DNA of 64,000 nucleotides, from IMG/VR virus record IMGVR_UViG_2706794662_000007; one strand, written 5' to 3'. The DNA is from a virus (taxonomy: Duplodnaviria > Heunggongvirae > Uroviricota > Caudoviricetes). Under the pieces are notes generated by a model. The model was not told the origin of the DNA and ran no database searches. It worked only from the letters and a program-made list of their open reading frames with translations. Below are positions 1 to 50,292 of the stretch, in pieces; the stretch's first letter is position 1; each line of letters begins with the position of its first letter. The position numbers and the translations under genes were made by a program.

Positions 1-1276
1 TGATCCCTCCCTGCTGGTTACGTGAACCAGCAAAGTAGAGACGAGCCTCTCCTTTCGCTTCTTCTTCTTCGGTTTTGTTGATCGTTATTACCAGGTCAGC
101 AATACGTACTTTTTCGATGTTGTCGGCAGCGTGCATCATTGTGGCAACTTCTGACGCGCCACCTTCACGGTTTGTCTGCGATGCCGTGATCCCAGCAACG
201 TTATGCTTGTCATAAAGAGCACGTAAATCGGTGTAGATACTACGAATGTTGGCGCGATCATCACGAAGGTCATAACTGGCACGCATCAAATCTGCGTAGT
301 CGACAACAACCATGTCAGGCACCATGCCGTTGGCTTTCATGCTGTTAAGCATACGGTCCAGATCTGCCGGTGACATACTTCCTGACGGACGCTCAACCAC
401 CCACAAACTACCAATCCCCTTCGTGGCTCCCAACTCTGCCAACTTACGATGAACCTCATCGCGCCGTTCCACCAGCTTGGACATTTCTGTCTCCGACAAT
501 CTTGCATCAAAACGGTCGGATAAAATGGTGGTGTGAACCTCCAGCGAGAGATACAGAACATTGTAGCCAGCAAGCGTTGCGTTTATGGAAAACTCACCCA
601 TTGCGGTCGATTTACCGGATTTAGCGAACCCCATGAAGAGCACCATTTCACGCTTCGCCCAGCCTTTTTGGTACAGCAACCTATCGAGCAGAGGGAGTCC
701 AGTTGTAATGCTGTTTGGCACATACTCCTCTGAAGCCTCATATTCACGCGCTTTCAATCGCTCACTTGCGGAGGTGTAGTAGTCATAGATTCCGGTCGCT
801 TCGTTCGATCCAATCTGCTGAACCTTAGCCATGATTGCCATCGCTCCCTGAAAGTCGCCTTTCTCTTTCAGTTCAGCAGCCTTAATCAGAGCATCATCAA
901 ACGCTACACTTTTTGCGAAGGTTGATACCTGGTCAACCATGTACGAGGTATCGGACAATTTTTCTGCAAGAATGCGCTTAAACGCAGCAACAACATCGGC
1001 GAATAGTTCCTCACGGATAGTCTTATCGCGTTTCGCACGCTTAAGCATATCCAGAATTGCAGATGAAGAGGGCGCGCTCTTGTACATACGGTAATAGCCC
1101 GAAACCATATTAACCAATATGGCATTGGCCGCATTGGCAAATTGGCTAGGCACAACCAGATCTCCCGCACGAGTAAGAAACTCGTGATCACGACAAAAAT
1201 ATGCCGTCAGTCTGTTCTGGAAATCTTCATCAAACTCTTCGGACAGCCCGCGTCCTGTATGGCAAAGTTCTGTCAT
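1..1276 (-). CDS. DnaB-like replicative helicase / RecA-fold ATPase (partial, C-terminus beyond window start)
   Basis: frame open to position 1; ATG at 1276; Walker A-like FMGFAKSGKST and Walker B-like VVVDYADLM in own translation. Confidence 0.5.
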   Translation of the reverse strand, partial: MTELCHTGRGLSEEFDEDFQNRLTAYFCRDHEFLTRAGDLVVPSQFANAANAILVNMVSGYYRMYKSAPSSSAILDMLKRAKRDKTIREELFADVVAAFKRILAEKLSDTSYMVDQVSTFAKSVAFDDALIKAAELKEKGDFQGAMAIMAKVQQIGSNEATGIYDYYTSASERLKAREYEASEEYVPNSITTGLPLLDRLLYQKGWAKREMVLFMGFAKSGKSTAMGEFSINATLAGYNVLYLSLEVHTTILSDRFDARLSETEMSKLVERRDEVHRKLAELGATKGIGSLWVVERPSGSMSPADLDRMLNSMKANGMVPDMVVVDYADLMRASYDLRDDRANIRSIYTDLRALYDKHNVAGITASQTNREGGASEVATMMHAADNIEKVRIADLVITINKTEEEEAKGEARLYFAGSRNQQGGI

Positions 1277-1295
1277 GTGCTTTCCTTTGTTTTTT

Positions 1296-1312
1296 AAACA
1301 AATTGTTTTCTA
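1296..1312. promoter_or_regulatory. family-1 palindromic motif copy (AAACAAATTGTTTTCTA) 20 nt upstream of helicase start
   Basis: matches recurrent AGAAAACAA-N-TTGTTTTCT element. Confidence 0.5.
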
Positions 1313-1319
1313 GTATTAG

Positions 1320-2069
1320 TTAATTAGATAGGGGATCAATAAACCGCCGTGCTTCTTCCAGTTCTTCTGGAAAGTGGGCGGAAATAAGGCGCTCTGGAAC
1401 GATTTCCATTAGCCAGATAGCGGAGAAAATTGCGCGTATGCGCTTGCTGCGAGGGATGGTGCGCAAACACTCCAGAATCCACTCAAAATAGCTTTCCTGA
1501 ATCGGGTTGAACTGCATGTCTCCCATATGCTTAAAGCTAACAAGAGAGTCATCCAGACGGGTTGTTGCGCGTCTGGCTAATTTCTCTTCGAATATCTCAA
1601 CCAGCTCTGGCTGCCACAAATGCTGTGGGCGCGGCAGCTTGTCCCACAGCCGTCGTGCAGCTGCGGAAAGAACGGTGGAGATAAAGTAGTCGTATGAGCA
1701 GCAATAGCGGTCAGCAAACTGGCGTGCTTTCCATAGAGACGTTTTATTGGCAGTCGACAACTCCTGATAAGGCAGGCGTTTTAACCCGGTGGTGAACGGA
1801 GCTGTTTCAAAGTGTTCGCGACCGTGCGTCAGCATGATATTTGAGTACTGACGTTTGTATGCCTCCGTAAACAGACAGGTGGCCATAAGAGGATGCATGT
1901 CTCGGTAATCAAACCACTTCGTCTCGAAGAGTTCAGCCTCGTCTTTACAGCGCGACAAACCAATGTTTTCAGCGACCCACTTGTCCATAACAGCGGTATT
2001 CCACTCTGTCATGAAGTCGTACTGGTCGTTGTCGATGGTATCGAAAAAGATTTGGCTCATGTGGCTCAC
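1320..2069 (-). CDS. hypothetical protein, 249 aa (GTG at 2069 or ATG at 2060)
   Basis: ORF track; co-oriented just upstream of helicase gene. Confidence 0.45.
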   Translation of the reverse strand: MSHMSQIFFDTIDNDQYDFMTEWNTAVMDKWVAENIGLSRCKDEAELFETKWFDYRDMHPLMATCLFTEAYKRQYSNIMLTHGREHFETAPFTTGLKRLPYQELSTANKTSLWKARQFADRYCCSYDYFISTVLSAAARRLWDKLPRPQHLWQPELVEIFEEKLARRATTRLDDSLVSFKHMGDMQFNPIQESYFEWILECLRTIPRSKRIRAIFSAIWLMEIVPERLISAHFPEELEEARRFIDPLSN

Positions 2070-2176
2070 CTGGTAGGTAGTTACTTACTTATCACAATGG
2101 ACGGATGATAGCGACTGGTGTCAGTTTTTGGAAGTGAAAACGGAAGGGAGTTGTTCTGGTGGTGTCTTTTAAAAGA

Positions 2177-2229
2177 CCTGCTTCCGTATATATTTAATAA
2201 GTTACTTATTATTTATATACAGAAACAGG
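2177..2229. repeat. ~53-bp near-perfect palindrome, copy A (CCTGCTTCCGTATATAT...ATATACAGAAACAGG)
   Basis: inverted arms flank AT-rich centre TTAATAAGTTACTTATTA; near-identical copies at 33069-33123 and 63687-63747. Confidence 0.75.
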
Positions 2230-2334
2230 CTCCTAATGGATACCAAGAACAACATAATTTGACTCCAACTCCAGATGCTATGTCATTGACAGATTTATCA
2301 AGGGAGATCATGTTAGAATTAGTGTTTTAGCCTC

Positions 2335-3408
2335 GTGGATATTGTCACCATGCGCATGAATAGACTTCCAGGATATGGCCTTCCCGAACTGGCTTTTTGG
2401 CCTCAGCCTAAATATGAACGGAATAAATGGTCGATGTTCTGTCTGAAACTCCGTAATGATGGAACCCTTGCTTGGTATCGGCGATATGTTGATCGTGGTA
2501 TGCCAAACCACGCTGTTGATGACGACTACGATAACTATCCTGAAGCAAGAAAAGCGGCATTAGAGCTGAATAAAAACGTGAGCTTTGACATTGAAAAACT
2601 TCCTCTATCTATGTTTCAAAAGAAGTCATTGCGTTTGAAAGTTGACAAAGCACTCAAAGCCAAATCACGTCTCATGGATGAAGAGTATATAATGCTCAAC
2701 GAAGCAATTAAGGCACACGCCAACGATCCGCGAGTGACATTAAATGAGTTAATAATTAACCCAGATTACGAAACTTTGCGTCAACCCCTTTTTGACGTGC
2801 TAAGCGAGATGCCTTACTTACATTTTGTTTTTCTTCCCAAATTCCAAGTTTCACTTCAACTCGTTGCTCCTAACACTTGGGAATGTTCATATAACAACAA
2901 AGCTAAGACAGCGAAGATCTGCTACCAAGAACGCATAGCCAGAGGTTTTGGTTTATCAGGTGCTGCACATTGGGGAAAAACAAAAGCGACTATTCGCTCA
3001 ATGCTTCTGCCGCGTGCTAACCGGTTACTGCAACTCGCCAGCGTAAAAAGAATGCTGGATGAAGCTCTCAGGAATGGGCAAAAGGTACTGGTTGTTGGCA
3101 ACTTTGTTTTCTGGTTTGAGGACAAAAATCAGGTAGGTTGGAGTGTTAAAGTTGCTAGCGAAAGCGAAACCACCTCAAGAGGCAATACGCTCTGGAAAGA
3201 AGGAACTATCATTTCAAAAAATCACGGTCGAATTGTCGTGCTGCCGTATACAAAAGAAAACGGTAAACATGTAAAAGGTTATACCAAGAATGCCCCTAAC
3301 GACGGCAATGCAATTCCGAGACATAAGGATGAGTATGTTGAGTTGCCCTTTGAAATTTTGGATGGTGACTTGATGTTCAGTCTGTTCGGTGAGCTTAACT
3401 ACGAATAG
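2335..3408 (+). CDS. hypothetical protein, 357 aa; AT-richer than flanks (cargo-like)
   Basis: ORF track; only plus-strand gene in a minus-strand region; no motif recognised. Confidence 0.5.
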   Translation: MDIVTMRMNRLPGYGLPELAFWPQPKYERNKWSMFCLKLRNDGTLAWYRRYVDRGMPNHAVDDDYDNYPEARKAALELNKNVSFDIEKLPLSMFQKKSLRLKVDKALKAKSRLMDEEYIMLNEAIKAHANDPRVTLNELIINPDYETLRQPLFDVLSEMPYLHFVFLPKFQVSLQLVAPNTWECSYNNKAKTAKICYQERIARGFGLSGAAHWGKTKATIRSMLLPRANRLLQLASVKRMLDEALRNGQKVLVVGNFVFWFEDKNQVGWSVKVASESETTSRGNTLWKEGTIISKNHGRIVVLPYTKENGKHVKGYTKNAPNDGNAIPRHKDEYVELPFEILDGDLMFSLFGELNYE

Positions 3409-3468
3409 CTTTCATAGAACGAAATATTTCTAAGGCTGTCCAATGCAGACCAGCCTTAGAGATTTATA

Positions 3469-3828
3469 TCAACCTTTCTTCATTAACTCGCGTTTAATTT
3501 CATCGGTACGCATCGTGACATCGGCAGCAGTGATCGCCTCGTTAAGCTTCACGATGTCCTCGATTTCCTGCGGTGACTTCTCTGCCAGATGGAAAATAGC
3601 AGCACGAATCACATCAGAGCGGGTGAATTTCTCGAAGCGAGGGATGAACTTCATCATCTCCAGCAGTTCGAAGTATTCGTCCTCCAGTGACATTGTGCGG
3701 CTTTTAATTTTCTCTTTGCCACGAGTCGGGCGTCCCTGTGGTCTGACTGGTTGGCGCAAAGGAGTTGTGTTCTTAGCCGGTGCATCAGACTCTTTGCGCT
3801 TTGCTAGGTCACCCATTTTCATGGACAT
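3469..3828 (-). CDS. small partition partner candidate (ParG/ribbon-helix-helix-like DNA-binding protein)
   Basis: 119 aa, basic N-terminus, start overlaps parA stop (ATGA-type junction at 3828). Confidence 0.35.
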   Translation of the reverse strand: MSMKMGDLAKRKESDAPAKNTTPLRQPVRPQGRPTRGKEKIKSRTMSLEDEYFELLEMMKFIPRFEKFTRSDVIRAAIFHLAEKSPQEIEDIVKLNEAITAADVTMRTDEIKRELMKKG

Positions 3829-4496
3829 TATTCTTCTTCCTCCAGACTCAACAGATAATCTACAAATTCTTCAAACTCGGCTTCCGCCTTTTTGTCGCGC
3901 TCGCTACCGGTCATTTCAAAGATAGAACGACCAGACTCTTCCGCATCATCATAGACGTTGCGGTTATATAGATTGACTGGCGCAGACTCGATGCCAAACG
4001 TCTCAACAATCTCTTTAGCCGCCAGAATGCGAGACACTTGTGATGGCAAAGCCGGGCACTGGTTCATGACCGCGCGGACCTTCACTTTATCGTTTACATT
4101 GCGAACATTGTCGATAATAGGATCGATGTCACGTAAAGATTTCAAATCACGACGCTTAGGACGCAGCGGGATAATGATAACGTCAGCCATCAGCATCGCT
4201 TGTCGCTGAATTTCGGAGTCGAAGCCACCAGCATCTACCACTACAAACTCAGCTCTACCCTGAAGCGATTTTAGGTGCTTAATGATGTCATCCTGAACGT
4301 ATGCAAAAGGAATCAGCTCAAGGTCTTCGTTCTGTCGACGGTCTTCACACCAGCTCGTTGTCGTGCGCTGAATATCTATATCGGTAATATAAACCTTCTT
4401 CTTCTTTTTGACTTTCAGGCAAACGGCAATTTGCTGGGCAACGGTGGATTTGCCAGGCCCGCCCTTTGTGCCGCCAACCACAAAGATCTTGGTCAT
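3828..4496 (-). CDS. parA: ParA/ParF-type partition ATPase
   Basis: deviant Walker A GGTKGGPGKST at N-terminus; 222 aa. Confidence 0.8.
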   Translation of the reverse strand: MTKIFVVGGTKGGPGKSTVAQQIAVCLKVKKKKKVYITDIDIQRTTTSWCEDRRQNEDLELIPFAYVQDDIIKHLKSLQGRAEFVVVDAGGFDSEIQRQAMLMADVIIIPLRPKRRDLKSLRDIDPIIDNVRNVNDKVKVRAVMNQCPALPSQVSRILAAKEIVETFGIESAPVNLYNRNVYDDAEESGRSIFEMTGSERDKKAEAEFEEFVDYLLSLEEEE

Positions 4497-4530
4497 TGGA
4501 GAGTTTCCTTTGCGTCTATTATTATTGTCT

Positions 4531-4549
4531 GAAACAACTTGTTTTCTTA
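4531..4549. promoter_or_regulatory. family-1 palindromic motif copy (GAAACAACTTGTTTTCTTA) ~35 nt upstream of parA
   Basis: recurrent motif; candidate operator or partition-operon control site. Confidence 0.5.
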
Positions 4550-4630
4550 TATGTGATATAGCCTAAATGCCTACGGCTGCTGTGTAAAGGTTTAATGATA
4601 GGTACATAGATTTGGTAAGGACTTAATAAC

Positions 4631-4650
4631 AAAAAACCCGCCGTAGCGGG
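4631..4650 (-). terminator. rho-independent terminator after 258-aa gene
   Basis: hairpin CCCGCCGTAGCGGG with A-run on plus strand (U-tract on minus). Confidence 0.55.
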
Positions 4651-4658
4651 TTTAGGAA

Positions 4659-5435
4659 TTAGTGGTTGGTAGACCTGGCATCAAATGTTGTAACGCCCAC
4701 TTCAATGTGGCGGTCTTCTTTGGAGATGATGGTGAGAATCTGACTAGATGGGTCTATGCTGACAGCCATAGGGTTCCAGTGACGTAACTGAGCCTCGCTG
4801 TTCAATAGCAGCGCATCCCACGGTTTGACGCCATTCTGCCCAATACCACCTTCAACAAGGACATCTATAAATTCTTTATTTAAATTGTCATAGATTTGGA
4901 CACGACCGACCAAAAGCATACCTACAGCCCAAATTCTGGCACCGTAAACCGTCTGATGGTCATCACATACTACATGGTCATGCCAATTGAGAAGAAAATT
5001 GTAAACTCTTCTAGCAAGTCCCTTTTGTTCCTTTGAAGGGGTTACAAATGCCCCTTTAATCTGGACCCCAAGGTGAGAGCCTTTTTGTGAGCGAAACTGG
5101 AATCGTTTGTAGACGAACCTGGCGATCTGAATGCCGTCATCATCTTCTTGCTCATCACCAACTAATTCACGAACACTATGAACTATCTCTTCTTCTGAAT
5201 GCCCCTGCTCGTCAAGATCCATTGCATGTTCTTGAAGCCAATCTGCATCAGGGTCGCCTACAAATGACACTGTCAAACAGTAATCATAATTAGACCCGAT
5301 CAAGGACCACTCTGTGAGCCGTAAAACAGAAAAATCAGAGTTAACCATGTAGCCAACTCTGATTTTCTCTCTTGCTTCACATTCAGGGAAATCAGACAGT
5401 ACTTTTGAATACTCTGCTATGAATGATGGTGACAT
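4659..5435 (-). CDS. hypothetical protein, 258 aa (acidic central region)
   Basis: ORF track; abuts next ORF with 1-nt gap. Confidence 0.5.
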   Translation of the reverse strand: MSPSFIAEYSKVLSDFPECEAREKIRVGYMVNSDFSVLRLTEWSLIGSNYDYCLTVSFVGDPDADWLQEHAMDLDEQGHSEEEIVHSVRELVGDEQEDDDGIQIARFVYKRFQFRSQKGSHLGVQIKGAFVTPSKEQKGLARRVYNFLLNWHDHVVCDDHQTVYGARIWAVGMLLVGRVQIYDNLNKEFIDVLVEGGIGQNGVKPWDALLLNSEAQLRHWNPMAVSIDPSSQILTIISKEDRHIEVGVTTFDARSTNH

Positions 5436-5834
5436 TTAGTTAGCAAGCCGCATATCCGTAGATGAATCCAGTTTCGCTATTTTAACATCTACGCGGTATT
5501 TATCTTTGATAAATTTAGCTATTTTGCTTTCAATCTCATAGAAAGCATCCTGTTCACAACGCACAACATCGGGAAACTGTTTTTCTGGCTTAACAAGAAA
5601 ACGTAACCGATTGTTGAGCACCATCATTTCTGCAAACAATTTGATGGTAAACTTGCCTTCTTCAACGTCACTTTTAAGGTTAACGATGAAACGCTGATCC
5701 TTAAGCATACCCGGTTTGTTCATTTCACGAATTTGGAGCGAGTCATTCCAATGCCGCAACGGAACCGATGCGATCATCTTGGTACAGTCTCTTATCGTCT
5801 GAATAGAACGAGATGCGTTAAGCGCAGTATGCAT
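5436..5834 (-). CDS. hypothetical protein, 132 aa
   Basis: ORF track; translationally coupled to 4659-5435. Confidence 0.45.
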   Translation of the reverse strand: MHTALNASRSIQTIRDCTKMIASVPLRHWNDSLQIREMNKPGMLKDQRFIVNLKSDVEEGKFTIKLFAEMMVLNNRLRFLVKPEKQFPDVVRCEQDAFYEIESKIAKFIKDKYRVDVKIAKLDSSTDMRLAN

Positions 5835-6008
5835 GTTTCCACCTTAGCCGGTAATAACTTTATGTCATAGCGGCGACCTTGTCGGTTTAGAGGCTACGAG
5901 TATGCGTCGATTTATTAAAACAAGGTATGATTTACTTGACATCCATGCTTCAAATCTACCTTGTGCTCTAATAATATGCAAATTTTATGTTAGAAAATTC
6001 CGCTTTTA

Positions 6009-6239
6009 TTATGGCACTTTTCTGCCCCATCCACACAATCGCTCCCCTATCATATTGTGAAAAAGTACTTCCCTTTCAGTCTCTTCGGTCATGAGATCAT
6101 CACGGCTGATGTATAGCGGTGTAGCCGCATCGCAGAAAAGCACACCAGAGGATTGAGGCTTAATCACGCAACCACTTATTGTGCAACTCATGATGAACAG
6201 TAGAAGCATCTTTGCGCCGTAACTCATCAAGTGTTTCAT
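6009..6239 (-). CDS. o-spanin candidate (Rz1-like lipoprotein), start partly embedded in i-spanin gene
   Basis: signal peptide with lipobox ISGC (MKHLMSYGAKMLLLFIMSCTISGC); start taken at internal Met of 6009..6317 ORF. Confidence 0.4.
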   Translation of the reverse strand: MKHLMSYGAKMLLLFIMSCTISGCVIKPQSSGVLFCDAATPLYISRDDLMTEETEREVLFHNMIGERLCGWGRKVP

Positions 6240-6411
6240 TTTTGACATCCACTGTGCTTTGAAGTCGTTTCCTGTCTTCCTGTTTTGCCTTCTCTTCCAT
6301 TGCTCGTCGCGCCGCATTTCCGCCCATCGTGTAAGCGCCGACCAGAACGAAAAGAACGGCAGCCAGAGTAATCAAAGCAACTTTTAGCTTTATCATCAGG
6401 CTACCTAGCAT
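6160..6411 (-). CDS. i-spanin candidate (Rz-like)
   Basis: N-terminal TM helix then charged coiled-coil; sits after endolysin candidate. Confidence 0.45.
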   Translation of the reverse strand: MLGSLMIKLKVALITLAAVLFVLVGAYTMGGNAARRAMEEKAKQEDRKRLQSTVDVKNETLDELRRKDASTVHHELHNKWLRD

Positions 6412-6412
6412 A

Positions 6413-7132
6413 TTAGGCCATCCCTTTCTGGTGTTTTCTTACCTGCGACCAGGCAATGAATCCTGCCACAACAATAGTGGCAATACCGAAGATGATGCGT
6501 ACTGTATCCCCACTAGAGATATGACCTTGTGCTTTATCCATAGCAGCGGAAACCTGCGGCATAACATCGGCCAGCTGCGCCAGACCAATACCTGCTGTAA
6601 CAGTTGCGCCTGCTGTTTCTTTAGTTACAGGAACAGCCTTCACGGTTTTCACCGGCTTAACGACTCCAGCTCGACGCAGACCTTCCTCAATAACTTCTGC
6701 CGCATACCAGGTGTTCAGCGTTTTTAGCGGACCTCGCCCATTCTCATGGCGAATGATTGCCTCAACCAAAGGTCGAAGGATGTCGTAATCATGCAGATCG
6801 ATGATCATGTCTGCGGTTACACCAACAGCTTTAGACACCTCATTAATGTAGGTGTCAGTGTTGTTTTCATTCGGCGGTGCCCAACGTTCAATAACTTCGC
6901 GAATGGTATCAATACTTGAGCCGTCTTTGGCGCGACGTTTATCGTGGTAGGTAATTAGAGTCACTGCCAGAGCACGAATACCCCAAACAGGGTCTTTAAA
7001 CGTGCAAAAGCGAGGTTCGTCTGGATTCGCAACCAGACCTTGCCACGGTGATCCTTTATCAAGATTACCGGGGTTATTATTACGAATGCCTCTCGGAGTC
7101 TTCATCCTTGTTCTCCTGTTATTGCAGTCCAT
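6413..7132 (-). CDS. putative cell-wall hydrolase (endolysin candidate) with C-terminal TM segment
   Basis: position between holin-like and spanin-like genes; GIRNNNPGNL motif; assignment positional. Confidence 0.35.
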   Translation of the reverse strand: MDCNNRRTRMKTPRGIRNNNPGNLDKGSPWQGLVANPDEPRFCTFKDPVWGIRALAVTLITYHDKRRAKDGSSIDTIREVIERWAPPNENNTDTYINEVSKAVGVTADMIIDLHDYDILRPLVEAIIRHENGRGPLKTLNTWYAAEVIEEGLRRAGVVKPVKTVKAVPVTKETAGATVTAGIGLAQLADVMPQVSAAMDKAQGHISSGDTVRIIFGIATIVVAGFIAWSQVRKHQKGMA

Positions 7133-7442
7133 TTTTTACGCCATATGCGGCTAATCCTAAAATTAGTGCGGTTATAATAAACGACGTCACTTTAGAAATA
7201 ATGCCTCCAAAGAAGCCGCTTGAGATCGAATCTAACCTATTAAGTAGTTTATCCAGATTGGAATGTTGAATACTGTGTTGAGCCGGAGTCATGTCACCAA
7301 AATAGTTTTTCAACTGCTCATGAACCTCATGAACTATCTCCTCTCTGATTTCTTTTCCTAATTTACCAACAACTTCTCTGGCGACAATTTTAGCTATTCT
7401 CTCAACCTGATCATGAGTGACGCCTCCTACGTCATTAGCCAT
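7119..7442 (-). CDS. small membrane protein, holin candidate
   Basis: 107 aa, single C-terminal TM helix, first gene of lysis cassette. Confidence 0.3.
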   Translation of the reverse strand: MANDVGGVTHDQVERIAKIVAREVVGKLGKEIREEIVHEVHEQLKNYFGDMTPAQHSIQHSNLDKLLNRLDSISSGFFGGIISKVTSFIITALILGLAAYGVKNGLQ

Positions 7443-7476
7443 GCTTCCTCCATGAGCAATCTATTTTAATATCCCC

Positions 7477-7494
7477 TTACATAATTTTATGTAA
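7477..7494. promoter_or_regulatory. perfect 18-bp palindrome TTACATAATTTTATGTAA in AT-rich region upstream of lysis cassette
   Basis: read directly; candidate operator or late-promoter element. Confidence 0.4.
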
Positions 7495-7539
7495 TTTAAA
7501 TATCAACTGAAATTTAAATAATATATAACCTTTTATATT

Positions 7540-8052
7540 TTAACTAATTTTCAAATCTTGTGTAACCCCCGTCCTTTTCATTGCCGTTATAAAGGCCGAA
7601 CTAGGTGTTCCTTGCCAGTAATAGTGAAAACCGTTAATAACACTATTGTAAGTAAAAACTTGTGAGACTCCACCAACTGTTACTGTAATATTGCTTGCCC
7701 TTCCCCCTGCGATGTATAAACCCCCAGTGGGCGGTAAACCTGGAACGTAGTGAGCTTGCGTAAGCACGATCCCCACTAAACGACCTAAACCACAGCTCGA
7801 AGCACCAGCAATTGTACCTTGGTTCTTTTCAGCCAATGGCCAATCTGAACCTACAGCCCCCCAGTTTTCGACTTTATCAGGAGGATTCCCTTTATAGTAA
7901 GCGGTTGCAATTTTACAGCCCATAGATCGTCCCACCATTTGACTCATCATAAAAGGTTTACCCAATCCTAACTTAGTACCCGCAGCGCTCATCCATTGTT
8001 CGCCCGTTTCGCTCTTAGCCGAAGAACCGACCCATCCCGACGCTACCCCCAT
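7540..8052 (-). CDS. glycine-rich hypothetical protein, 170 aa, downstream of tail fibre
   Basis: ORF track; Gly-rich segments; position typical of fibre accessory/adhesin genes. Confidence 0.4.
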   Translation of the reverse strand: MGVASGWVGSSAKSETGEQWMSAAGTKLGLGKPFMMSQMVGRSMGCKIATAYYKGNPPDKVENWGAVGSDWPLAEKNQGTIAGASSCGLGRLVGIVLTQAHYVPGLPPTGGLYIAGGRASNITVTVGGVSQVFTYNSVINGFHYYWQGTPSSAFITAMKRTGVTQDLKIS

Positions 8053-8137
8053 TTTACCCCTCCTTTTGAATGCGTGGGGTGAGTATCACCCCCACAATTT
8101 AAATTCAGTAGAAACCAGAAACTCCAACAGCTGTCGT

Positions 8138-11100
8138 TTACTTCTCCCGAAGTTCTTTAATCTCATGACGAAGTGTTTTAAAGCCCTCGACTAACAATGC
8201 AATTATGCCGTTGTAGTTAAGACACAGACGTTTTTCACCAGATATAACGTCTGTGTCTTCAGTTACCAGTTCAGACAATGCTTTTTGTGCATCCTGAGCA
8301 ATTAAACCAACTGACGTTTTCCAACTATCATCAGAGAGTTGGATTTCATAAAGATAACCAGTAAGTGCCTCCAAACGATCTAACGCATTATCTAGCTTTA
8401 CCAGATTACGCTTGTTACGCTTATCTGAGCGGATCTGAACATCATTAAATGAGCCATTTCCATTTACAGTCAAATTACCTGTTATCGTACCCCCACCGAT
8501 AGGCAAAGCACCAATTTGAGCGGCACTTATACTAATATTTTTTGTTCCGTCGAAACTTACTCCATTTATAGTACGTGCTGTTTGTAGCTTAGTTGCTGAT
8601 GCTGCGTTACCAGATGTATTCTGATTTCCTGACGTATTCACACCTGGAAGATTAATGTTTGCGCTACCATCAAATGATACTCCACCTATTGTTCTTGATG
8701 TTTTTAATTTAGTAGCTGTTGCAGCATTACCTGATGTGTTCTGATTTCCAGCTTTGTTAACGCCTGGTAAATCTATATTCGCTGTACCATCAAACGATAC
8801 CCCCCCTATATTTCTCGCTGTTTTCAGTTTCGTAGCCGAAACTGCATTTCCATTTGAGGCAAGGGCGCCTATCTCTGAAGCCGTTGGTTTATTTTGAGAA
8901 CTGTAATTACGACGCCATGTTGGGCTATAGTTATCGCCGTTGTATGTATAAATAAACTCACTATTAAGAACAGCACCAGATGCACCTCCAGATGTTGAAG
9001 GTGTTGTAATGCGTATAGTGTAATTACTTGTACCGGTTGAAAACACCTCAATAACAGAACCAGCAAGAGGTATAACTCCACATCCCGTTGATGCATTTCC
9101 TATATAACAGTTACTACCATAAGACCAGCTACAACGTGTGCTCCACTGAGTTGCATCAAATGCCCCTTGTGAATTTAACCATGCGACAAATTGTGCAGTT
9201 GTCCACTCTTGAGTATTCCCCGTAGCAAGATTAGCAACATATTTTGCTGCACCTAGTTGTTTTGGCGTGATGCTTATATTCTTTGAGCCATCAAAACTGA
9301 CCCCATTTATTTTTCGTGCCGTTGCAAGTTTTGTCGCCGTTGCAGCATTACCTGACGTGTTCTGATTTCCAGCTTTATTGACACCAGGTAAGTCAATATT
9401 TGCAGTGCCATTAAACGATACCCCACCTATTGTTCTTGCCGTTTGCAGTCTCGTTGCGCTCCCTGCATTACCTGTTGTACTCTGATTTCCAACCTTGTTA
9501 ACGCCTGGTAAGTCAATATTTGCAGTGCCGTCAAATAACATTCCACCAATTGAACGAGGTGTTGCTAACTTAGTGGCAGAGGCAGCGTTTCCACTAGTAC
9601 TCTGAGTTCCTGTTGAGTTTACACCTGGTAGATTTATATCTGATGAACCATCAAACGGTACTCCGCCAATTTTTCGTGCTGCTTTTAATTTTGTTGCGGT
9701 ATCGGAATTTCCGTTAAGTGAGCCTGCAAGACCATTACTAAATGTTTGCTTTGCACTCCATGTATTGGCTGTACTCAATAAAGGTATTTTATCGCCACTT
9801 GTTCCATTTTCCTTCAATCCAAGATACTGAATAATCGCCTGTACACTTGCTTTAGAAAGAATATCTCGACCAACAGAAGTTATTGTTGCTAATCCAGCTG
9901 TATCATTCCCTGTAAAATAAGGAAGTTTATTAGCGGCTGTTGTTAGTCCAGCCAGTGCAGTCAGCGTAGCATCAAGAGGTTGTTTTGTGGCCAACTTGTT
10001 CGTCATTGTTGTGGCAAAATCGGGATCATCACCCAAAGCCCTTGCCAACTCATTAAGAGTATCAAGCGCTTCAGGTGATGATCCTACAAGACCTGAGATC
10101 GCTTCTCTTACATAAGCAGTTGTGGCAATTTGCGTATTATTAGTGCCTTGAGTCGCCGTTGGTGCCGTTGGTGTGCCAGTAAATGCTGGGCTGTTGATTG
10201 CTGCTTTTCTATCAGCAAGATCCTTTACACTTTTAACCGCTTTTGTTGTTGCGGCCAATGATTCAGAGGCGTTATTTGTATCGCTACTTAATTGAACCAG
10301 CCCTTTTTGTGAAGTTGTCGCGTCATTTGCAGTATATTTTGATTTAGCAAGATCAAACGCAGCCTTTACTGCTTTTGGTGTTGCTGCAAATTCTTCTGAC
10401 GAACTGCTCGTCTCACTGCTTAATTTGACAATACCCTTCATAGTCAAACTGGCATCATGTAATGATATCGCTGACAAAGCTCTTTCTGCTCTAGTAGCAG
10501 CTATCTCTGCACGCTCTGCCGATGCAAGTGCTGATGTTTGGCTTTGCTTTGCTTCTTCTGCTTTAGCCGCAGATTCAGCTGATTTCGATGATGCGTTACT
10601 AGCACTAGTTGAGGCTTCAGCAGACTTTCGGCTAGCTTCATCCTTCGAAGCTCTAGCAGCAGACGCATAAGTTGAAGCCTGATTAGCGGATGTCTTCGCA
10701 GACCTTGCCGACTCTCTAGCCTGATTTGCAGAAGTTGATGCACTGCCAGCACCAGAAGCAGCATTCATTTCAGATAATTTTGCAGCCTCTTTAGAGACCA
10801 ACGCAGCATTAGCCGAACTTGTGGCTTCTGTTGCCTTAGTGGAAGCTGTTGATGCAGAAATTGCAGCTGCGTTCTTCGCCTCTAAAGCACTTGTTTCTGA
10901 TGCTTTAGCACTTGATGCACTTTTATTTGCTGCATTTTTAGACGCTGTAGCATCCAACGCACTATTAGATGCCTGAGTAGCCTTACTGCTTGCTAGATTC
11001 GCACTCTTCGCCGCAGCCGACGCACTGGCCGCAGCCTGTTTTGCTTTATCTCCTGCGGAATTAATTGCGTTAGTATTATTTTCATACCATTCTACGTGCT

Positions 11101-11509: not shown

Positions 11510-11603
11510 GTTGAATCTGCTCCTTTAATCAGGTGGGCTATCCTTGCCCACCATTAAGTATGTAACTACCTATTATTATCGATAAAAATATTTTTTTCCA
11601 TAA

Positions 11604-18824: not shown

Positions 18825-18866
18825 CTCACATCCTTGTGAGACTGCCCCGACCGGGGCAGTCGATAG

Positions 18867-36550: not shown

Positions 36551-36632
36551 TTTATTGCTACAATCCACTAAGTAATCACTTACTTATTATAATAGCCAAA
36601 TAACATACAAAAGGCACTAAGGAAAGAGGTTT

Positions 36633-47095: not shown

Positions 47096-49034
47096 TTACT
47101 TAACCTGGTGGCCAGGTTTAGCACCAGCATCCGGGCTTAACAGGAAGATATCTTTCCCGCCAGGACCGGCAGCCATCACCATGCCTTCAGAGATACCGAA
47201 GCGCATTTTACGTGGTGCCAGGTTAGCCACCATAATGGTGTGACGACCAATCAGTGCCTGTGGATCTGGATAAGCGGAACGGATGCCTGAGAAGACATTA
47301 CGCTTTTCACCACCGAGATCCAGCGTCAGGCGAAGCAGTTTGTCAGAACCTTCGACAAACTCCGCGTTTTCAATCAGCGCCACACGCAGGTCAACTTTGG
47401 CGAAGTCGTCAAAGGTGATGGTTTCCTGAATCGGTTCGTCAGCCAGTGGGCCAGTTACCGGTGCAGCTGTGGCTTTCACTTCTTCTTTGGATGCTTCCAC
47501 CAGTGCTTCCACCTGTTTCATATCGATACGGTTATACAGTGCCTTGAACGGATTCACTTTATGGCCCAGAAGCGGTTGCTGGATACCATCCCAGGTCAGT
47601 TCTGTATTCAGGAATGCTTCTGCACGTTCAGTCAGTTTCGGCAGTACCGGTTTCAGGTACGTCATCAGCACGCGGAACAGGTTAATGCCCATAGAGCAAA
47701 TCGCCTGCAGATCTGCATCGCGACCTTCCTGCTTCGCCACCACCCACGGAGCCTGTTCATCGACATAGCGATTAGCCAGGTCAGCCAATGCCATGATTTC
47801 ACGGATAGCTTTACCAAATTCGCGGCTTTCCCATGCTTCGCCAATCACTTCAGCGGCATCAGTAAAGGTTTTGTACAGTTGCGGGTCAGCCAGTTCGCTT
47901 GTCAGCACGCCGTCAAAACGCTTGTTGATAAAGCCTGCATTACGGGAGGCCAGGTTAACCACTTTGTTCACGATATCGGCATTCACGCGCTGAACGAAAT
48001 CTTCCAGGTTGAGATCGATATCATCAATGCGCGAAGAGAGTTTCGCAGTGTAGTAGTAACGCAGGCTGTCAGCGTCAAAATGATTCAGCCAGGTGCTGGC
48101 TTTAATAAAGGTGCCGCGAGACTTGGACATCTTCGCGCCGTTCACCGTCACATAGCCGTGAACAAACAGGTTGGTCGGCTTGCGGAAGTTGCTGCCTTCC
48201 AGCATGGCAGGCCAGAACAGACTGTGGAAGTAAACGATATCTTTGCCGATGAAGTGGTACAGCTCGGCGGTGGAGTCTTTCTTCCAGTATTCGTCGAAGC
48301 TTACGCTGTCGCCGCGCTTGTCGCACAGATTCTTGAAAGAACCCATGTAGCCAATCGGCGCGTCCAGCCAGACGTAGAAATATTTGCCCGGCGCGTTCGN
48401 NNNNNNNNNNNNNNNNNNNNNNNNNNNNNNNNNNNNNNNNNNNNNNNNNNNNNNNNNNNNNNNNNNNNNNNNNNNNNNNNNNNNNNNNNNNNNNNNNNNN
48501 NNNNNNNNNNNNNNNNNNNNNNNNNNNNNNNNNNNNNNNNNNNNNNNNNNNNNNNNNNNNNNNNNNNNNNNNNNNNNNNNNNNNNNNNNNNNNNNNNNNN
48601 NNNNNNNNNNNNNNNNNNNNNNNNNNNNNNNNNNNNNNNNNNNNNNNNNNNNNNNNNNNNNNNNNNNNNNNNNNNNNNNNNNNNNNNNNNNNNNNNNNNN
48701 NNNNNNNNNNNNNNNNNNNNNNNNNNNNCTCTTCGCTGTGCGTCGAGTGATAGTTGTCATAGCTGATGTTAAAGCCTGCGAAATCAGTCTGATGTTCCTG
48801 ACTCATTTCGCCAATCATCTGTTCCGGTGTGATACCAAGCTGCTGTGCTTTCAGCATGATTGGCGTACCGTGGGCATCGTCGGCACAGATGAAATTAACC
48901 TCGTGGCCGCGCATTCGCTGGTAACGAACCCAGACATCAGCCTGGATGTGCTCCAGCATATGGCCGAGGTGGATTGAGCCGTTAGCGTACGGCAGCGCGC
49001 ACGTCACCAGAATTTTCTTCGCGACTTGGGTCAT
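47096..49034 (-). CDS. metG: methionine--tRNA ligase (interrupted by N-run; frame differs on the two sides of the mask)
   Basis: N-terminus [29 protein letters not shown] and C-terminus ...[24 protein letters not shown] recognised as enterobacterial MetRS. Confidence 0.9.
48390..48728. other. run of 339 N inside metG
   Basis: literal n characters. Confidence 1.
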
Positions 49035-49191
49035 AGTAGGCATTACTTCTTTGTAGTGAAAAGGGGCTTGATAGTAACAAAATGGCCTTATGTCTGCCAT
49101 GTGATAACAGCATTTCTCATAAATGATTAAATGTCGTAGCTGGAGTACACTACAAGGCGACAATTGCGCAAATTAAAATAAAGGAGACGGG

Positions 49192-50292
49192 ATGAGCGAG
49201 TCCAAATCGCCGGATGCCCTGAGAGCAATGGTAGCCGGTACGCTGGCTAATTTTCAGCACCCAACCCTGAAACACAACTTGACTACGCTTAAAGCGTTAC
49301 ACCATGTTGCGTTGATGGATGACACACTGCATGTCGAACTAATCATGCCTTTCGTGTGGAATAAGCCTTTTGAAGACCTGAAAGAGCAATGTAGTGGTGA
49401 TCTGCTCCGTATCACTGGCGCAAAGGCTATTGACTGGAAGCTGTCGTACAACATTGCCACGCTTAAGCGCGTCAAAAACCAACCAGGCATTAATGGCGTT
49501 AAGAACATTATCGCCGTCAGCTCAGGCAAGGGCGGCGTGGGTAAATCCTCCACAGCAGTAAACTTGGCACTGGCTTTGGCTGCTGAAGGTGCGAAAGTTG
49601 GTATTTTGGATGCCGATATCTATGGTCCATCAATTCCAACCATGCTGGGCGCGGAAAACCAACGTCCAACCTCACCGGACGGTACTCACATGGCACCTAT
49701 CATGTCTCATGGCCTGGCAACCAACTCTATTGGTTATCTGGTCACCGATGACAATGCAATGGTGTGGCGTGGACCGATGGCGAGCAAGGCGCTGATGCAG
49801 ATGTTGCAGGAAACACTGTGGCCTGATCTGGACTATCTCGTTCTCGATATGCCACCGGGCACTGGTGATATTCAATTGACGCTGGCGCAGAACATTCCTG
49901 TAACTGGTGCGGTTGTGGTAACTACGCCGCAAGACATCGCGCTGATCGATGCGAAGAAAGGCATTGTGATGTTCGAAAAAGTCGAAGTGCCGGTACTGGG
50001 TATCGTTGAAAACATGAGTGTGCATATTTGCAGTAACTGCGGTCATCACGAGCCAATTTTTGGCACCGGTGGAGCACAGAAACTGGCCGAGAAATACAAC
50101 ACGCAGTTGTTAGGCCAAATGCCACTTCATATCTCTCTTCGTGAAGATCTGGATAACGGAACACCAACCGTTATTAGTCGTCCAGATAGCGAATTTACGG
50201 CTATTTATCGTGACCTCGCAGATCGCGTTGCTGCCCAAATGTATTGGCAAGGTGAAGTAATACCTGGCGAAATCGCATTCCGCGCAGTGTGA
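49192..50292 (+). CDS. apbC: iron-sulfur cluster carrier protein ApbC/Mrp
   Basis: 366 aa, Walker A SGKGGVGKS, CxxC near C-terminus; divergent from metG as in enterobacterial chromosomes. Confidence 0.9.
   Translation: MSESKSPDALRAMVAGTLANFQHPTLKHNLTTLKALHHVALMDDTLHVELIMPFVWNKPFEDLKEQCSGDLLRITGAKAIDWKLSYNIATLKRVKNQPGINGVKNIIAVSSGKGGVGKSSTAVNLALALAAEGAKVGILDADIYGPSIPTMLGAENQRPTSPDGTHMAPIMSHGLATNSIGYLVTDDNAMVWRGPMASKALMQMLQETLWPDLDYLVLDMPPGTGDIQLTLAQNIPVTGAVVVTTPQDIALIDAKKGIVMFEKVEVPVLGIVENMSVHICSNCGHHEPIFGTGGAQKLAEKYNTQLLGQMPLHISLREDLDNGTPTVISRPDSEFTAIYRDLADRVAAQMYWQGEVIPGEIAFRAV

What the first reader, a model, noticed from the sequence alone, without database searches (positions are those of the whole stretch)
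3469..4650. Plasmid-type partition locus inside a tailed-phage genome (phage-plasmid signature)
A ParA/ParF-type ATPase with deviant Walker A and an overlapping small partner lie 2.5 kb from a DnaB-like helicase and upstream of lysis and tail genes. No integrase is visible anywhere in the window. Together this suggests extrachromosomal maintenance as a phage-plasmid, which conflicts with the adjacent chromosomal metG-apbC and therefore needs resolving.
Basis: partly seen in the sequence, partly recalled or inferred. Interest (0 to 1): 0.55.

Follow-up and report, generated by a model that had tools for sequence, protein, structure and literature searches.

The report
Partition operon of SSU5-type phage-plasmid

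Summary
A 222-aa ParF-like Walker ATPase (3828-4496, minus strand) overlaps by one base a 119-aa partner gene (3469-3828, minus strand).

The window is 100% identical to Shigella sonnei AUSMDU00008333 plasmid 2 (LR213459.1, positions 28347-92388). This is a circular 108-kb member of the SSU5/pHCM2 phage-plasmid group.

The supposed conflict disappears. metG-apbC is cargo carried on about 200 such plasmids, and it differs by 6-7% from the E. coli chromosomal copy.

The parA locus occurs in 264 of 5,426 complete E. coli genomes, always on plasmids and never on a chromosome. A tyrosine recombinase lies 8.6 kb outside the window. There are no chromosomal flanks: the record's two ends join inside a RepB-type initiator gene.

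Some things are not settled:
- The partner belongs to a tiny orphan family, and an RHH-like fold is only weakly suggested.
- No iterated centromere is present.

The 60 bases upstream of parA are about 98% conserved. They hold a 17-bp palindrome that recurs before at least 14 other operons.

Verdict: a correct but already known phage-plasmid partition locus, with an uncharacterised partner protein and centromere.

The parts
3828..4496 (-). parA: 222-aa small Walker-type (type Ib, ParF-like) partition ATPase. Signature lysine K11, P-loop K16/S17, D39/D41 (Walker A'), D88 (Walker B).
   Evidence: ORF. Pfam MipZ, AAA_31 and CbiA hits. PHROG 164 at 4e-51. PDB ParF 4dzz at E 1.2e-10 over residues 9-199. 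NCBIfam ParA_partition scores 115.7 bits, below its equivalog cutoff of 180.
3469..3828 (-). Partner gene, the putative centromere-binding and ATPase-stimulating protein (119 aa). Residues 1-47 form a disordered basic N-terminal tail with a conserved M-G-D-L-A-K-R motif. A conserved SRTMSxEDE and (F)TRSDVIRAAI core follows, then two C-terminal helices.
   Evidence: One-base overlap with parA. No Pfam hit. PHROG 5111, function unknown. The family is narrow: 25 clusters and 18 representatives among 1.84 billion proteins. All relatives whose contigs were examined sit directly downstream of a parA. AlphaFold2 models have pLDDT 65 and 70.
4532..4591 (-). Ultra-conserved non-coding core upstream of parA. 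It holds the inferred promoter, TTTACA (4588-4583), a 17-nt spacer and TAGGCT (4565-4560), followed by the AT palindrome TATATCACATATA.
   Evidence: Mean pairwise identity is 0.98 in 11 elements, against 0.71-0.92 across parA. TTTACA-17-TAGGCT also recurs in the divergent loci L013 and L025. The strict consensus scan did not call this promoter, so it is an inference.
4530..4546 (-). 17-bp palindromic operator GAAAACA-AGT-TGTTTCA (core AAACAAGTTGTTT at 4532-4544). It lies 35 nt upstream of the parA ATG.
   Evidence: It is the only upstream element still shared with the divergent groups L023, L025, L026 and L014.
4506..4510 (-). Shine-Dalgarno-like AAGGA, 9 nt before the parA ATG.
   Evidence: Read from the sequence. 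Conserved in the alignments.
4634..4653 (-). Intrinsic terminator of the preceding 258-aa gene. It marks the upstream boundary of the par operon.
   Evidence: 8-bp stem, 5 G-C pairs, T tract.
3426..3463 (.). Hairpin with 13-nt arms (92% complementary), just past the partner's stop codon. It lies between the convergent partner gene and ORF 2335-3408 and is probably a bidirectional terminator.
   Evidence: inverted repeat I5.
2177..2229 (.). Copy 1 of a 53-57-bp AT-centred palindrome, CCTGCTTCYGTATATA...TATATACAGAAGCAGG, flanked by inverted TCTGG / CCAGA boxes. It lies between the par operon and the module of the 249-aa gene, helicase and primase. It is a second candidate cis site: centromere, origin, or terminator/regulatory element.
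   Evidence: six arm matches in the window against 0.01 expected. The other copies are at 33069-33123 and 63689-63745.
1..1276 (-). DnaB-like replicative helicase, C-terminal 425 codons, cut by the window start. Its promoter carries the same palindromic operator at 1296-1308.
   Evidence: Pfam DnaB_C at 8e-13. Annotated as helicase in PhiR41_1, Cyrano and SSU5. Operator.
47096..50292 (.). metG (minus strand, interrupted in the window by the masked run 48400-48728) and apbC (plus strand). These are cargo genes of the phage-plasmid, not chromosome.
   Evidence: metG is intact (677 aa) in the source record.

Best explanation
**What it is.** The locus is the two-gene partition operon of a type Ib (ParF-like, small Walker ATPase) system. 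It belongs to a circular, low-copy, 108-kb SSU5/pHCM2-group phage-plasmid, Shigella sonnei AUSMDU00008333 plasmid 2.

**Shown here**
- The identity of the ATPase.
- The operon architecture.
- The extrachromosomal circular context, with a RepB/Rep3 initiator.
- The exclusively plasmid location of the locus in complete genomes.
- The cargo status of metG-apbC.

**Inferred from what is established for ParF-ParG, delta-omega and other type Ib systems**
- ATP-bound ParA dimers coat the nucleoid.
- The 119-aa partner binds one or more cis sites on the plasmid as a dimer through its conserved SRTMSxEDE / TRSDVIRAAI core, which is probably ribbon-helix-helix-like.
- Its disordered basic N-terminal tail, with the conserved G-D-L-A-K-R motif, stimulates ParA's ATPase.
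- The plasmid copies are thereby driven apart before division.

**Transcription.** The operon is read from a weak sigma-70-type promoter (TTTACA-17-TAGGCT) inside a 60-nt block that is more conserved than the genes. A 17-bp palindromic operator lies between the promoter and the ribosome-binding site. The same operator sits in front of at least 14 other operons of the element. Partition-gene expression therefore appears wired into an element-wide regulatory circuit.

**Not identified.** The centromere itself.
For: **Nature of the element**
- The window equals LR213459.1 positions 28347-92388 at 100% identity.
- The junction of the record's ends matches circular p09EL50 at 99.95% over 6 kb, and RepB spans the ends.
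- Related plasmids are typed IncFIB and non-mobilizable.
- The nearest relatives are phage-plasmids or phages: CMS-2020a, PhiR41_1, Cyrano and SSU5.
- Cyrano, whose aligned parts are 93% identical to window 1-12000, is kept at 5.5 copies per cell. It makes virions, is induced 39-fold by ciprofloxacin, and expresses the partner homologue CYRAN_29 at 9 times background in lysogens (PMC9928086).
- The SSU5 supergroup is a described phage-plasmid group (PMC7969092). It is common in S. sonnei (bioRxiv 10.1101/2025.09.12.675607).

**Nature of the locus**
- ParF is the best PDB match, and the Walker motifs are read from the sequence.
- The locus is in 264 of 5,426 E. coli genomes: 265 places on plasmids and none on chromosomes.
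- The partner always lies directly downstream of a parA in every lineage found.
- The partner's invariant residues cluster in a strand-like stretch and at the start of a helix.

**Upstream region**
- The upstream core is 98% conserved.
- The operator is strongly enriched: 14 sites with at most 2 mismatches against 0.5 expected. All sites are 11-122 nt upstream of minus-strand start codons.
Against: - No experiment on this system was found in the searchable literature.
- No iterated centromere array lies next to the genes.
- The partner has no significant Pfam or PDB sequence match, and hhalign against ParG gives probability 0.1.
- ParA scores below NCBIfam's ParA_partition equivalog cutoff.
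- A tyrosine recombinase is encoded 8.6 kb outside the window, so occasional integration cannot be excluded by sequence alone.
- PLSDB labels the record 'linear', although the junction analysis contradicts this.
Confidence: 0.85

Rival explanations
1. The element is an integrated prophage sitting in the chromosome next to metG-apbC. Its ParA-like gene is then a relic or serves another purpose.
For: metG and apbC are neighbouring chromosomal genes in E. coli, and every one of 5,426 genomes has the pair. A tyrosine recombinase is encoded just outside the window.
Against: - The source record is a closed 108-kb circle with a plasmid initiator.
- metG-apbC is flanked on both sides by phage-plasmid genes in circular plasmids.
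- Plasmid copies are 95-99% identical to the window, while chromosomal copies are 92-94%.
- The par locus is never chromosomal in 5,426 complete genomes.
Confidence: 0.02
2. The 119-aa ORF is not the centromere-binding partner. It is a toxin or antitoxin (annotated 'RelE/ParE putative toxin' in Cyrano), or an unrelated small protein. ParA then works with the two ParB_N-domain proteins encoded at 35202-36568.
For: - The Cyrano annotation.
- Two ParB_N proteins exist on the element (Pfam 3e-13 and 1.5e-8; PHROG 'ParB-like partition protein').
- The partner has no recognised DNA-binding family.
Against: - No RelE/ParE or other toxin family hit at any threshold.
- A one-base overlap with parA, conserved in every lineage.
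- The ParB_N genes lie 31 kb away, beside the terminase genes and next to an ABC-type ATPase.
- They are retained in Yersinia pMT1, which has no homologue of this ParA and uses a type Ia ParA/ParB pair instead.
- Small ParA proteins of type Ib classically pair with an adjacent small protein (established knowledge).
Confidence: 0.06
3. The ATPase is not a DNA-segregation motor. It is a ParA/MinD-family positioning or exclusion protein that acts on the host, for example on division-site placement (MipZ/MinD-like), or in phage defence.
For: The top Pfam hit is MipZ, and RefSeq sometimes names it 'division plane positioning ATPase MipZ'. It is below the ParA_partition equivalog cutoff.
Against: - The MipZ match covers only the N-terminal P-loop half. 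The full-length best match is ParF.
- It is a persistent gene of a low-copy (about 5 copies), 108-kb, non-mobilizable replicon that needs active partition.
- pMT1 replaced it with a bona fide type Ia parAB pair rather than simply losing it, which fits functional equivalence.
Confidence: 0.05
4. The partner is both centromere-binding protein and global regulator, in the manner of KorB or omega. The dispersed 17-bp palindromes would be its binding sites and jointly act as centromeres and operators. The three 55-bp palindromes are an alternative set of dispersed sites.
For: - The palindrome is the only element upstream of parA shared by groups whose partner keeps an identical DNA-reading core.
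- AAAACAA heptads lie upstream of parA in 7 of 8 partner-bearing lineages.
- No other repeat array is near the genes.
- The palindrome is about 25-fold enriched.
- Precedents from established knowledge: RK2 KorB with 12 OB palindromes, pSM19035 omega with three promoter-centromeres, and N15 with four dispersed sites.
Against: - pMT1 has no partner or ParA homologue yet keeps 7 sites against 0.4 expected, plus one 55-bp palindrome. This is weak evidence, because pMT1 is so similar that the sites could persist without selection.
- L012, L013 and L017 have partner homologues with the same predicted DNA-facing residues but no such palindrome.
- The 10-bp half-site spacing and the fixed distance from start codons fit an ordinary HTH repressor such as the regulator beside the recombinase (CYRAN_45-like).
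Confidence: 0.12

Closest known systems
SSU5 / pHCM2 group phage-plasmids (Salmonella phage SSU5, S. Typhi pHCM2, E. coli pLF82 = Cyrano, p09EL50, S. sonnei pWPMR2-like elements)
   Same: - Same element type and gene order: tail fibre, lysis genes, parA, partner, helicase, primase.
- 80-98% nucleotide identity.
- IncFIB/RepB-type replicon.
- Same tyrosine recombinase.
- The window is 100% identical to a deposited member of this group.
   Different: Nothing essential differs. Only the accessory slots change. Here a 357-aa ORF lies between the partner and the helicase module, and two unknown ORFs lie upstream of parA where Cyrano and p09EL50 carry a DUF1778-GNAT toxin-antitoxin pair.
TP228 ParF-ParG-parH (type Ib partition)
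   Same: - A small Walker ATPase without an N-terminal DNA-binding domain. ParF is the best solved relative (E 1e-10).
- A small downstream partner with a flexible N-terminal tail and a short conserved core.
- A cis regulatory region immediately upstream of the ATPase gene.
   Different: - The partner shows no detectable sequence relationship to ParG (hhalign probability 0.1).
- It is 43 residues longer and has two extra C-terminal helices.
- There is no parH-like array of tetramer boxes. Instead there is a single palindrome inside a 60-nt invariant block.
RK2 IncC-KorB and pSM19035 delta-omega (partition proteins that double as global regulators with dispersed sites)
   Same: A short palindrome or repeat recurs at many promoters of the same replicon, including the promoter of the ParA gene.
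   Different: No evidence shows that the partner is the protein that binds these sites. KorB is a ParB-family HTH protein, and omega binds arrays of 7-10 heptads rather than single palindromes. The sites persist in pMT1, which lacks the partner.
P1 ParA-ParB-parS and N15 SopA-SopB (the classical phage-plasmid partition systems)
   Same: The biological role is the same: active segregation of a low-copy plasmid prophage. P1 also carries a tyrosine recombinase (Cre) used for multimer resolution, not integration. N15 has dispersed palindromic centromeres (established knowledge).
   Different: Those are type Ia systems, with a large ParA that has an HTH domain and a large ParB. This is type Ib. A type Ia pair is what replaced this locus in Yersinia pMT1.

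Membership tests
SSU5/pHCM2-group phage-plasmid | Extensive nucleotide and gene-order similarity to SSU5, pHCM2 and their relatives | tested here: met
   Aligned parts are 98% identical to CMS-2020a and p09EL50, 95% to PhiR41_1, 93% to Cyrano and 80% to SSU5, in the same gene order.
SSU5/pHCM2-group phage-plasmid | Extrachromosomal circular replicon with its own replication initiator | tested here: met
   The record's ends join collinearly with circular p09EL50, and RepB/Rep3_N spans the junction. Iteron-like repeats lie beside it. The par locus has no chromosomal place among 265.
SSU5/pHCM2-group phage-plasmid | Complete tailed-phage morphogenesis and lysis gene set | tested here: met
   Long intact ORFs are present for the tail fibre, J-like tip protein, tape measure (1525 aa), portal and terminase, plus holin, endolysin and spanin. 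Names come from relatives.
SSU5/pHCM2-group phage-plasmid | Virion production and infectivity of this very element | not testable with these tools
   Shown only for relatives: SSU5 and PhiR41_1 are phage records, and Cyrano virions were seen by qPCR and TEM (PMC9928086).
Type Ib (ParF-like) partition system | Small Walker-type ATPase with a deviant Walker A (KGGxxK[ST]) and no N-terminal HTH domain | tested here: met
   222 aa with K11-G-G-P-G-K16-S. The alignment to ParF covers residues 9-199. No other domain was found.
Type Ib (ParF-like) partition system | Small partner gene immediately downstream in the same operon | tested here: met
   One-base overlap, conserved in all 10 intact relatives aligned (the eleventh, L022, is frameshifted), and the same synteny in distant lineages.
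Type Ib (ParF-like) partition system | Partner is a dimeric site-specific DNA-binding protein (RHH in ParG, omega and pB171 ParB) | tested here: inconclusive
Type Ib (ParF-like) partition system | Centromere made of iterated short repeats adjacent to the operon | tested here: not met
   No repeat array was found at 3300-4800 or by TRF on the whole plasmid. Only a single 17-bp palindrome in an invariant block and a 53-bp palindrome 1.2 kb downstream.
Type Ib (ParF-like) partition system | Stabilises a replicon; ATPase stimulated by the partner | not testable with these tools
   Requires stability and biochemical assays.
ParG family (Pfam ParG / TP228 ParG) | Detectable sequence homology to ParG | tested here: not met
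   hhalign probability 0.1. No Pfam hit at E up to 10. No PDB hit with the family profile.
KorB/omega-type global regulator-centromere protein | Multiple copies of one operator at promoters around the replicon | tested here: met
   14 sites with at most 2 mismatches against 0.5 expected. All are upstream of start codons.
KorB/omega-type global regulator-centromere protein | The partition protein itself binds those operators | not testable with these tools
   The indirect evidence is mixed.
Integrated temperate prophage | Integrase plus att sites with chromosomal flanks | tested here: not met
   A recombinase gene is present outside the window. The replicon is closed, with no chromosomal flank, and the locus is never chromosomal.

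The most novel reading that the evidence does not exclude
The 119-aa orphan partner may be a new class of centromere-binding protein that also acts as a master regulator of the phage-plasmid.
- It would bind the dispersed GAAAACA-N3-TGTTTTC palindromes, and possibly the three 55-bp dyad elements.
- It would thereby couple plasmid segregation to repression of replication, early and late phage operons.
- This would be a KorB/omega-like logic, not yet described for a tailed phage-plasmid.
Probability: 0.12. Interest if true: 0.55.

Novelty: already known. Interest (0 to 1): 0.25.

Why it matters
SSU5-type phage-plasmids are widespread in clinical Enterobacteriaceae. One survey found them in 18% of S. 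sonnei isolates. They also carry resistance genes such as dfrA51. Their stable inheritance depends on this locus.

Recognising such contigs as phage-plasmids avoids two annotation errors:
- calling them prophages or ordinary plasmids;
- reading their captured housekeeping genes (metG, apbC) as chromosome.

The element and its lifestyle are already described. Three points remain open:
- which protein reads the element-wide operator;
- where the centromere is;
- what fold the orphan partner has.

All three are modest but tractable questions about how a phage-plasmid coordinates maintenance with the lysis-lysogeny decision.

Tried and rejected
**Partner fold**
- Foldseek against the PDB gave nothing.
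- hhalign against ParG gave probability 0.1. My recalled ParG sequence was first verified against 1p94.
- A family-profile search of PDB sequences found nothing. Pfam at E up to 10 found nothing meaningful.
- The RHH assignment therefore stays an inference.

**Centromere search**
- The repeat finder on 3300-4800 returned only chance-level pairs.
- TRF on the whole plasmid found no array near the locus, only iteron-like repeats beside RepB.
- I considered TAGGC/ACCT boxes in the upstream block. I dropped them because they are not conserved in the divergent groups.

**RNA explanations for the conserved block**
- Rfam found no family in the window, and there are no tRNA genes.

**Apparent metG frameshift**
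- It is an artefact of a masked N run whose length differs from the true sequence.

**Using Yersinia pMT1 to decide who binds the palindromes**
- pMT1 has no partner or ParA homologue, yet it keeps the palindromes.
- The test is inconclusive because pMT1 is too similar to the group for neutral decay to have erased 17-bp sites.

**Promoter scan**
- The consensus scan did not call the promoter I infer.
Full report
**1. The observation**

The ORF list and the sequence show two co-directional minus-strand genes.

The first, at 3828-4496, encodes 222 aa.
- It has a deviant Walker A motif (VVGGT-K11-GGPG-K16-ST), a Walker A' aspartate pair (D39, D41) and a Walker B aspartate (D88).
- Pfam gives MipZ 7e-14, AAA_31 9e-14 and CbiA 1e-7. 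PHROG 164, 'ParA-like partition protein', gives 4e-51.
- The best solved relative is ParF of plasmid TP228 (4dzz, E 1.2e-10, aligned over residues 9-199).
- NCBIfam's ParA_partition model scores 115.7 bits, below its equivalog cutoff of 180. It is therefore a relative of that family, not a curated equivalog.

The second gene, at 3469-3828, encodes 119 aa. It starts on the last base of the parA stop codon (TAATG).

It contains the terminator of the preceding gene at 4634-4653.
- A DnaB_C helicase fills 1-1276 and is cut by the window edge.
- Lysis and tail genes follow from about 6 kb.
- metG and apbC are really present at 47-50 kb.
- No tyrosine recombinase is encoded in the window.

**2. What the window is**

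The par locus is 100% identical to LR213459.1, Shigella sonnei AUSMDU00008333 plasmid 2, 108,101 bp. After fetching the whole record, the window maps to positions 28347-92388 at 100% identity. The only exceptions are six masked N runs in the window.

The record's last and first 3 kb, joined together, align without a break to the circular E. coli O104:H4 plasmid p09EL50 (99.95% over 6,000 bases). A RepB/Rep3_N initiator gene spans the record ends. Iteron-like repeats lie beside it. The molecule is therefore a closed circle with a plasmid replicon and no chromosomal flank.

The nearest relatives are phage-plasmids or phages:
- Escherichia phage CMS-2020a, 98%;
- PhiR41_1, 95%;
- Cyrano (pLF82), 93%;
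- Salmonella phage SSU5, 80%.

About 110-kb E. coli plasmids are also close relatives. This is the SSU5/pHCM2 supergroup of phage-plasmids (PMC7969092). The group was found in 18% of surveyed S. sonnei isolates (10.1101/2025.09.12.675607).

For Cyrano, experiments show 5.5 copies per cell, virion production and 39-fold induction by ciprofloxacin. The homologue of the partner gene (CYRAN_29, there annotated as a RelE/ParE toxin) is expressed at 9 times background in lysogens (PMC9928086).

**3. The 'conflict' with metG-apbC**

On p09EL50, metG and apbC lie between phage-plasmid genes on both sides. The window's metG segment is found on 208 PLSDB plasmids, nearly all non-mobilizable and about 100-120 kb.

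In complete E. coli genomes it has 220 plasmid places and 5,424 chromosomal places. The 168 records at 95% identity or more are consistent with the plasmid copies. Chromosomal copies are 92-94% identical. The pair is therefore a diverged, captured copy carried as cargo.

The apparent frameshift of metG in the window is an artefact. A masked run at 48400-48728 does not keep the true length. In the source record metG is intact, 677 aa.

**4. Integrase**

The closely related p09EL50 encodes a tyrosine recombinase (Pfam Phage_integrase, 1e-9) with a divergent small HTH regulator beside it. The identical gene is at record positions 18632-19732 of the source plasmid, 8.6 kb left of the window.

The replicon is a closed circle. 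The par locus occupies 265 plasmid places and no chromosomal place in 5,426 complete E. coli genomes. The recombinase is therefore more likely a multimer-resolution or other plasmid-borne recombinase, as Cre is for P1. That role is an inference.

**5. The partner protein**

It has no Pfam family and belongs to PHROG 5111 of unknown function. It has no PDB sequence match, alone or as a family profile.

The family is very small.
- It has 25 clusters among 5.8 billion sequences.
- It has 18 representatives among 1.84 billion.
- Every relative whose contig could be read lies directly after a parA, in the same order of tail fibre, lysis genes, parA and partner, followed by the helicase where the contig extends that far.

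Across 16 diverse members the invariant or near-invariant residues fall into three groups:
- an N-terminal [MFL]-G-[DG]-L-x-K motif within a disordered basic tail;
- I41-x-S43-R44-x-x-S47-x-E49-x-E51;
- R70-S-D72-V-x-R75-A-A.

AlphaFold2 models (pLDDT 65 and 70) show residues 1-47 disordered and helices at about 48-59, 70-82, 86-97 and 101-118. The pattern is a short polar/hydrophobic strand, a helix, a loop and a helix that starts with S/T-R-S-D. This is what a ribbon-helix-helix protein looks like.

The support for that fold is weak.
- The RHH family aCcr1 gives a sub-threshold NCBIfam hit.
- hhalign against ParG gives probability 0.1.

I conclude it is the functional analogue of ParG or omega by position and architecture. 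It is not a demonstrable member of any known family. The toxin annotation in Cyrano has no support.

**6. Cis elements**

There is no iterated repeat array near the genes, so a classical type Ib centromere is not seen.

Aligning 11 elements from Shigella, Escherichia, Salmonella, Enterobacter, Citrobacter and Klebsiella shows an unusually conserved block. Positions 4532-4591 upstream of parA have 0.98 mean pairwise identity, against 0.71-0.92 along parA.

The block holds TTTACA (4588-4583), a 17-nt spacer and TAGGCT (4565-4560). This arrangement recurs in the divergent loci L013 and L025, and I take it as the promoter. The strict consensus scan did not call it.

Downstream of the promoter lies a palindrome, GAAAACA-AGT-TGTTTCA (4546-4530). 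In more divergent groups (L023, L025, L026, L014) the rest of the upstream region is unrelated. The sequence CATAAGAAAACA-NN(N)-TGTTTTC is nevertheless kept in place.

The palindrome is not specific to parA.
- The core AAACAANTTGTTT matches 34 times on both strands in the window, against 3.1 expected.
- On the whole plasmid the 17-mer has 14 sites with at most 2 mismatches, against 0.5 expected.
- The 15 window sites all lie 11-122 nt upstream of a minus-strand start codon.
- These include the helicase (1296), parA (4532), the late operon (32992 and 33017) and a dozen early genes between 42 and 61 kb.

It is thus an element-wide operator, and the par promoter is one of its targets.

**7. Who binds the operator, and where is the centromere?**

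Arguments for the partner as the binder:
- The operator is the only shared upstream element among groups whose partner keeps an identical putative DNA-reading core.
- AAAACAA heptads occur upstream of parA in 7 of 8 partner-bearing lineages.

Arguments against:
- L012, L013 and L017 have partner homologues but no such palindrome.
- The 10-bp half-site spacing and the fixed promoter-proximal position fit an ordinary HTH repressor.
- Yersinia pestis pMT1 is a member of the supergroup that replaced this locus with a type Ia ParA/ParB pair.
  - It has no homologue of either protein.
  - It still has 7 sites against 0.4 expected.
  - This last test is weak, because pMT1 is too similar for neutral decay to have erased the sites.

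A second candidate cis element turned up. It is a 53-57-bp AT-centred palindrome, CCTGCTTCYGTATATA...TATATACAGAAGCAGG, flanked by inverted TCTGG/CCAGA boxes.
- It is present three times, at 2177-2229, 33069-33123 and 63689-63745. That is six arm matches against 0.01 expected.
- Copy 1 lies between the par operon and the module of the 249-aa gene, helicase and primase. Accessory genes have been inserted between it and the partner gene in different relatives.
- Each copy sits 86-118 nt upstream of the first gene of a minus-strand operon. That argues for a transcription-linked role (terminator or regulatory site), or for an origin in the case of copy 1, rather than a centromere.
- N15-like dispersed centromeres cannot be excluded.
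- One copy persists in pMT1.

The centromere is therefore not identified.

**8. Mechanism proposed**

Shown here:
- A ParF-like ATPase and an adjacent small partner form an operon on a circular, low-copy, non-mobilizable phage-plasmid.
- The operon has an unusually constrained promoter region containing an operator shared with most other operons.

Inferred from the established behaviour of type Ib systems:
- ParA-ATP binds the nucleoid.
- The partner dimer binds plasmid sites.
- Its N-terminal tail triggers ATP hydrolysis.
- The resulting ParA gradient separates plasmid copies.
- The shared operator ties par expression to the regulatory state of the element.

**9. Comparison and novelty**

The element is a member of the SSU5/pHCM2 phage-plasmid group. 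All testable defining features are met, and the window is identical to a deposited plasmid of that group.

The locus works like a type Ib ParF-ParG system. Two family features are not satisfied: an iterated adjacent centromere was tested and not met, and an RHH partner is inconclusive. The partner is not a ParG homologue.

The phage-plasmid reading and the ParA annotation are already in the literature and in database records, so the finding as given is already known. What appears undescribed in the literature I could search is the orphan partner family, the invariant promoter block, the element-wide 17-bp operator and the triple 55-bp palindrome.

**10. Verdict**

The finding is correct and ordinary, and the apparent contradiction is resolved. 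Interest is 0.25. The most novel reading still open is a KorB/omega-like dual role for the partner, at about 0.12 probability.

Noticed in passing
window 1296-1308, 4532-4544, 32992-33004, 33017-33029, 42345, 43110, 44012, 44497, 46062, 46948, 46999, 50842, 55978, 60540, 61269 (13-mer starts): A 17-bp palindrome, GAAAACA-N3-TGTTTTC, recurs 11-122 nt upstream of the start codons of at least 15 minus-strand genes or operons. These include the helicase, parA, the late operon (two tandem copies) and many early genes. There are 14 sites with at most 2 mismatches on the plasmid against 0.5 expected. It looks like the operator of an element-wide regulator. The binding protein is unknown.
   Followed up: partly
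window 2177-2229, 33069-33123, 63689-63745: Three copies of a 53-57-bp AT-centred palindrome, CCTGCTTCYGTATATA...TATATACAGAAGCAGG. Each is flanked by inverted TCTGG/CCAGA boxes and lies 86-118 nt upstream of the first gene of an operon. The copies are about 31 kb apart on the circle. They are conserved in SSU5, Cyrano and p09EL50, and one copy is kept in Yersinia pMT1. The function is unknown: terminator/insulator, regulatory site, origin or dispersed centromere.
   Followed up: partly
window 47096-50292: A second copy of metG (methionyl-tRNA synthetase) and apbC is carried as plasmid cargo. It is 6-7% diverged from the E. coli chromosomal copy, present on about 200 plasmids, and intact in the source record. 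Why a phage-plasmid keeps an aminoacyl-tRNA synthetase is unexplained.
   Followed up: partly
window 18165-18414, 41580-41843, 48400-48728, 50917-51169, 53490-53739, 57311-57565: Six masked runs of N. Their lengths differ from the true sequence (for example 329 N where the record has 424 bases), so ORFs that cross them look frameshifted.
   Followed up: yes
window 39245-39766 (+): A 173-aa protein matches Pfam Flag1_repress (FljA-type repressor of phase-1 flagellin) at E 1e-68. The phage-plasmid may therefore modulate host flagellin expression. It is also a candidate DNA- or RNA-binding regulator.
   Followed up: no
window 34567-36568 (-): Two adjacent ParB_N-domain proteins (233 and 232 aa) and an ABC-type ATPase (212 aa) lie in the gene block next to the terminase genes. 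They are conserved in pMT1. They are probably not the partition ParB, and their role is unknown.
   Followed up: partly
window 50330-50719 (-): A HumD-family (UmuD-like, S24 peptidase) gene, with NCBIfam E 2e-65, as in phage P1. It is preceded by an operator palindrome.
   Followed up: no
window 2335-3408 (+) and 4659-5834 (-): These are variable accessory slots on both sides of the par operon.
- Between the partner gene and the helicase module: here a 357-aa ORF of PHROG 22329; a P-loop NTPase in p09EL50; a DUF2971 gene and small ORFs in SSU5.
- Upstream of parA: here two unknown ORFs; a DUF1778-GNAT (KacAT-type) toxin-antitoxin pair in Cyrano and p09EL50.
   Followed up: partly
outside the window: LR213459.1 18248-19732 and 107869-1092: A tyrosine recombinase with a divergent 128-aa HTH regulator, which is the likely lysogeny repressor (CYRAN_45-like). 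A RepB/Rep3 initiator with iteron-like 12-, 26- and 42-bp repeats spans the record's ends.
   Followed up: partly
Yersinia pestis pMT (NZ_CP045164.1) 43494-45667: pMT1 shares the SSU5-type structural module (terminase 97% aa identity). It has lost the block of lysis genes, parA, partner and helicase, and carries a type Ia ParA/ParB pair elsewhere. This looks like a natural swap of partition systems within the supergroup.
   Followed up: partly
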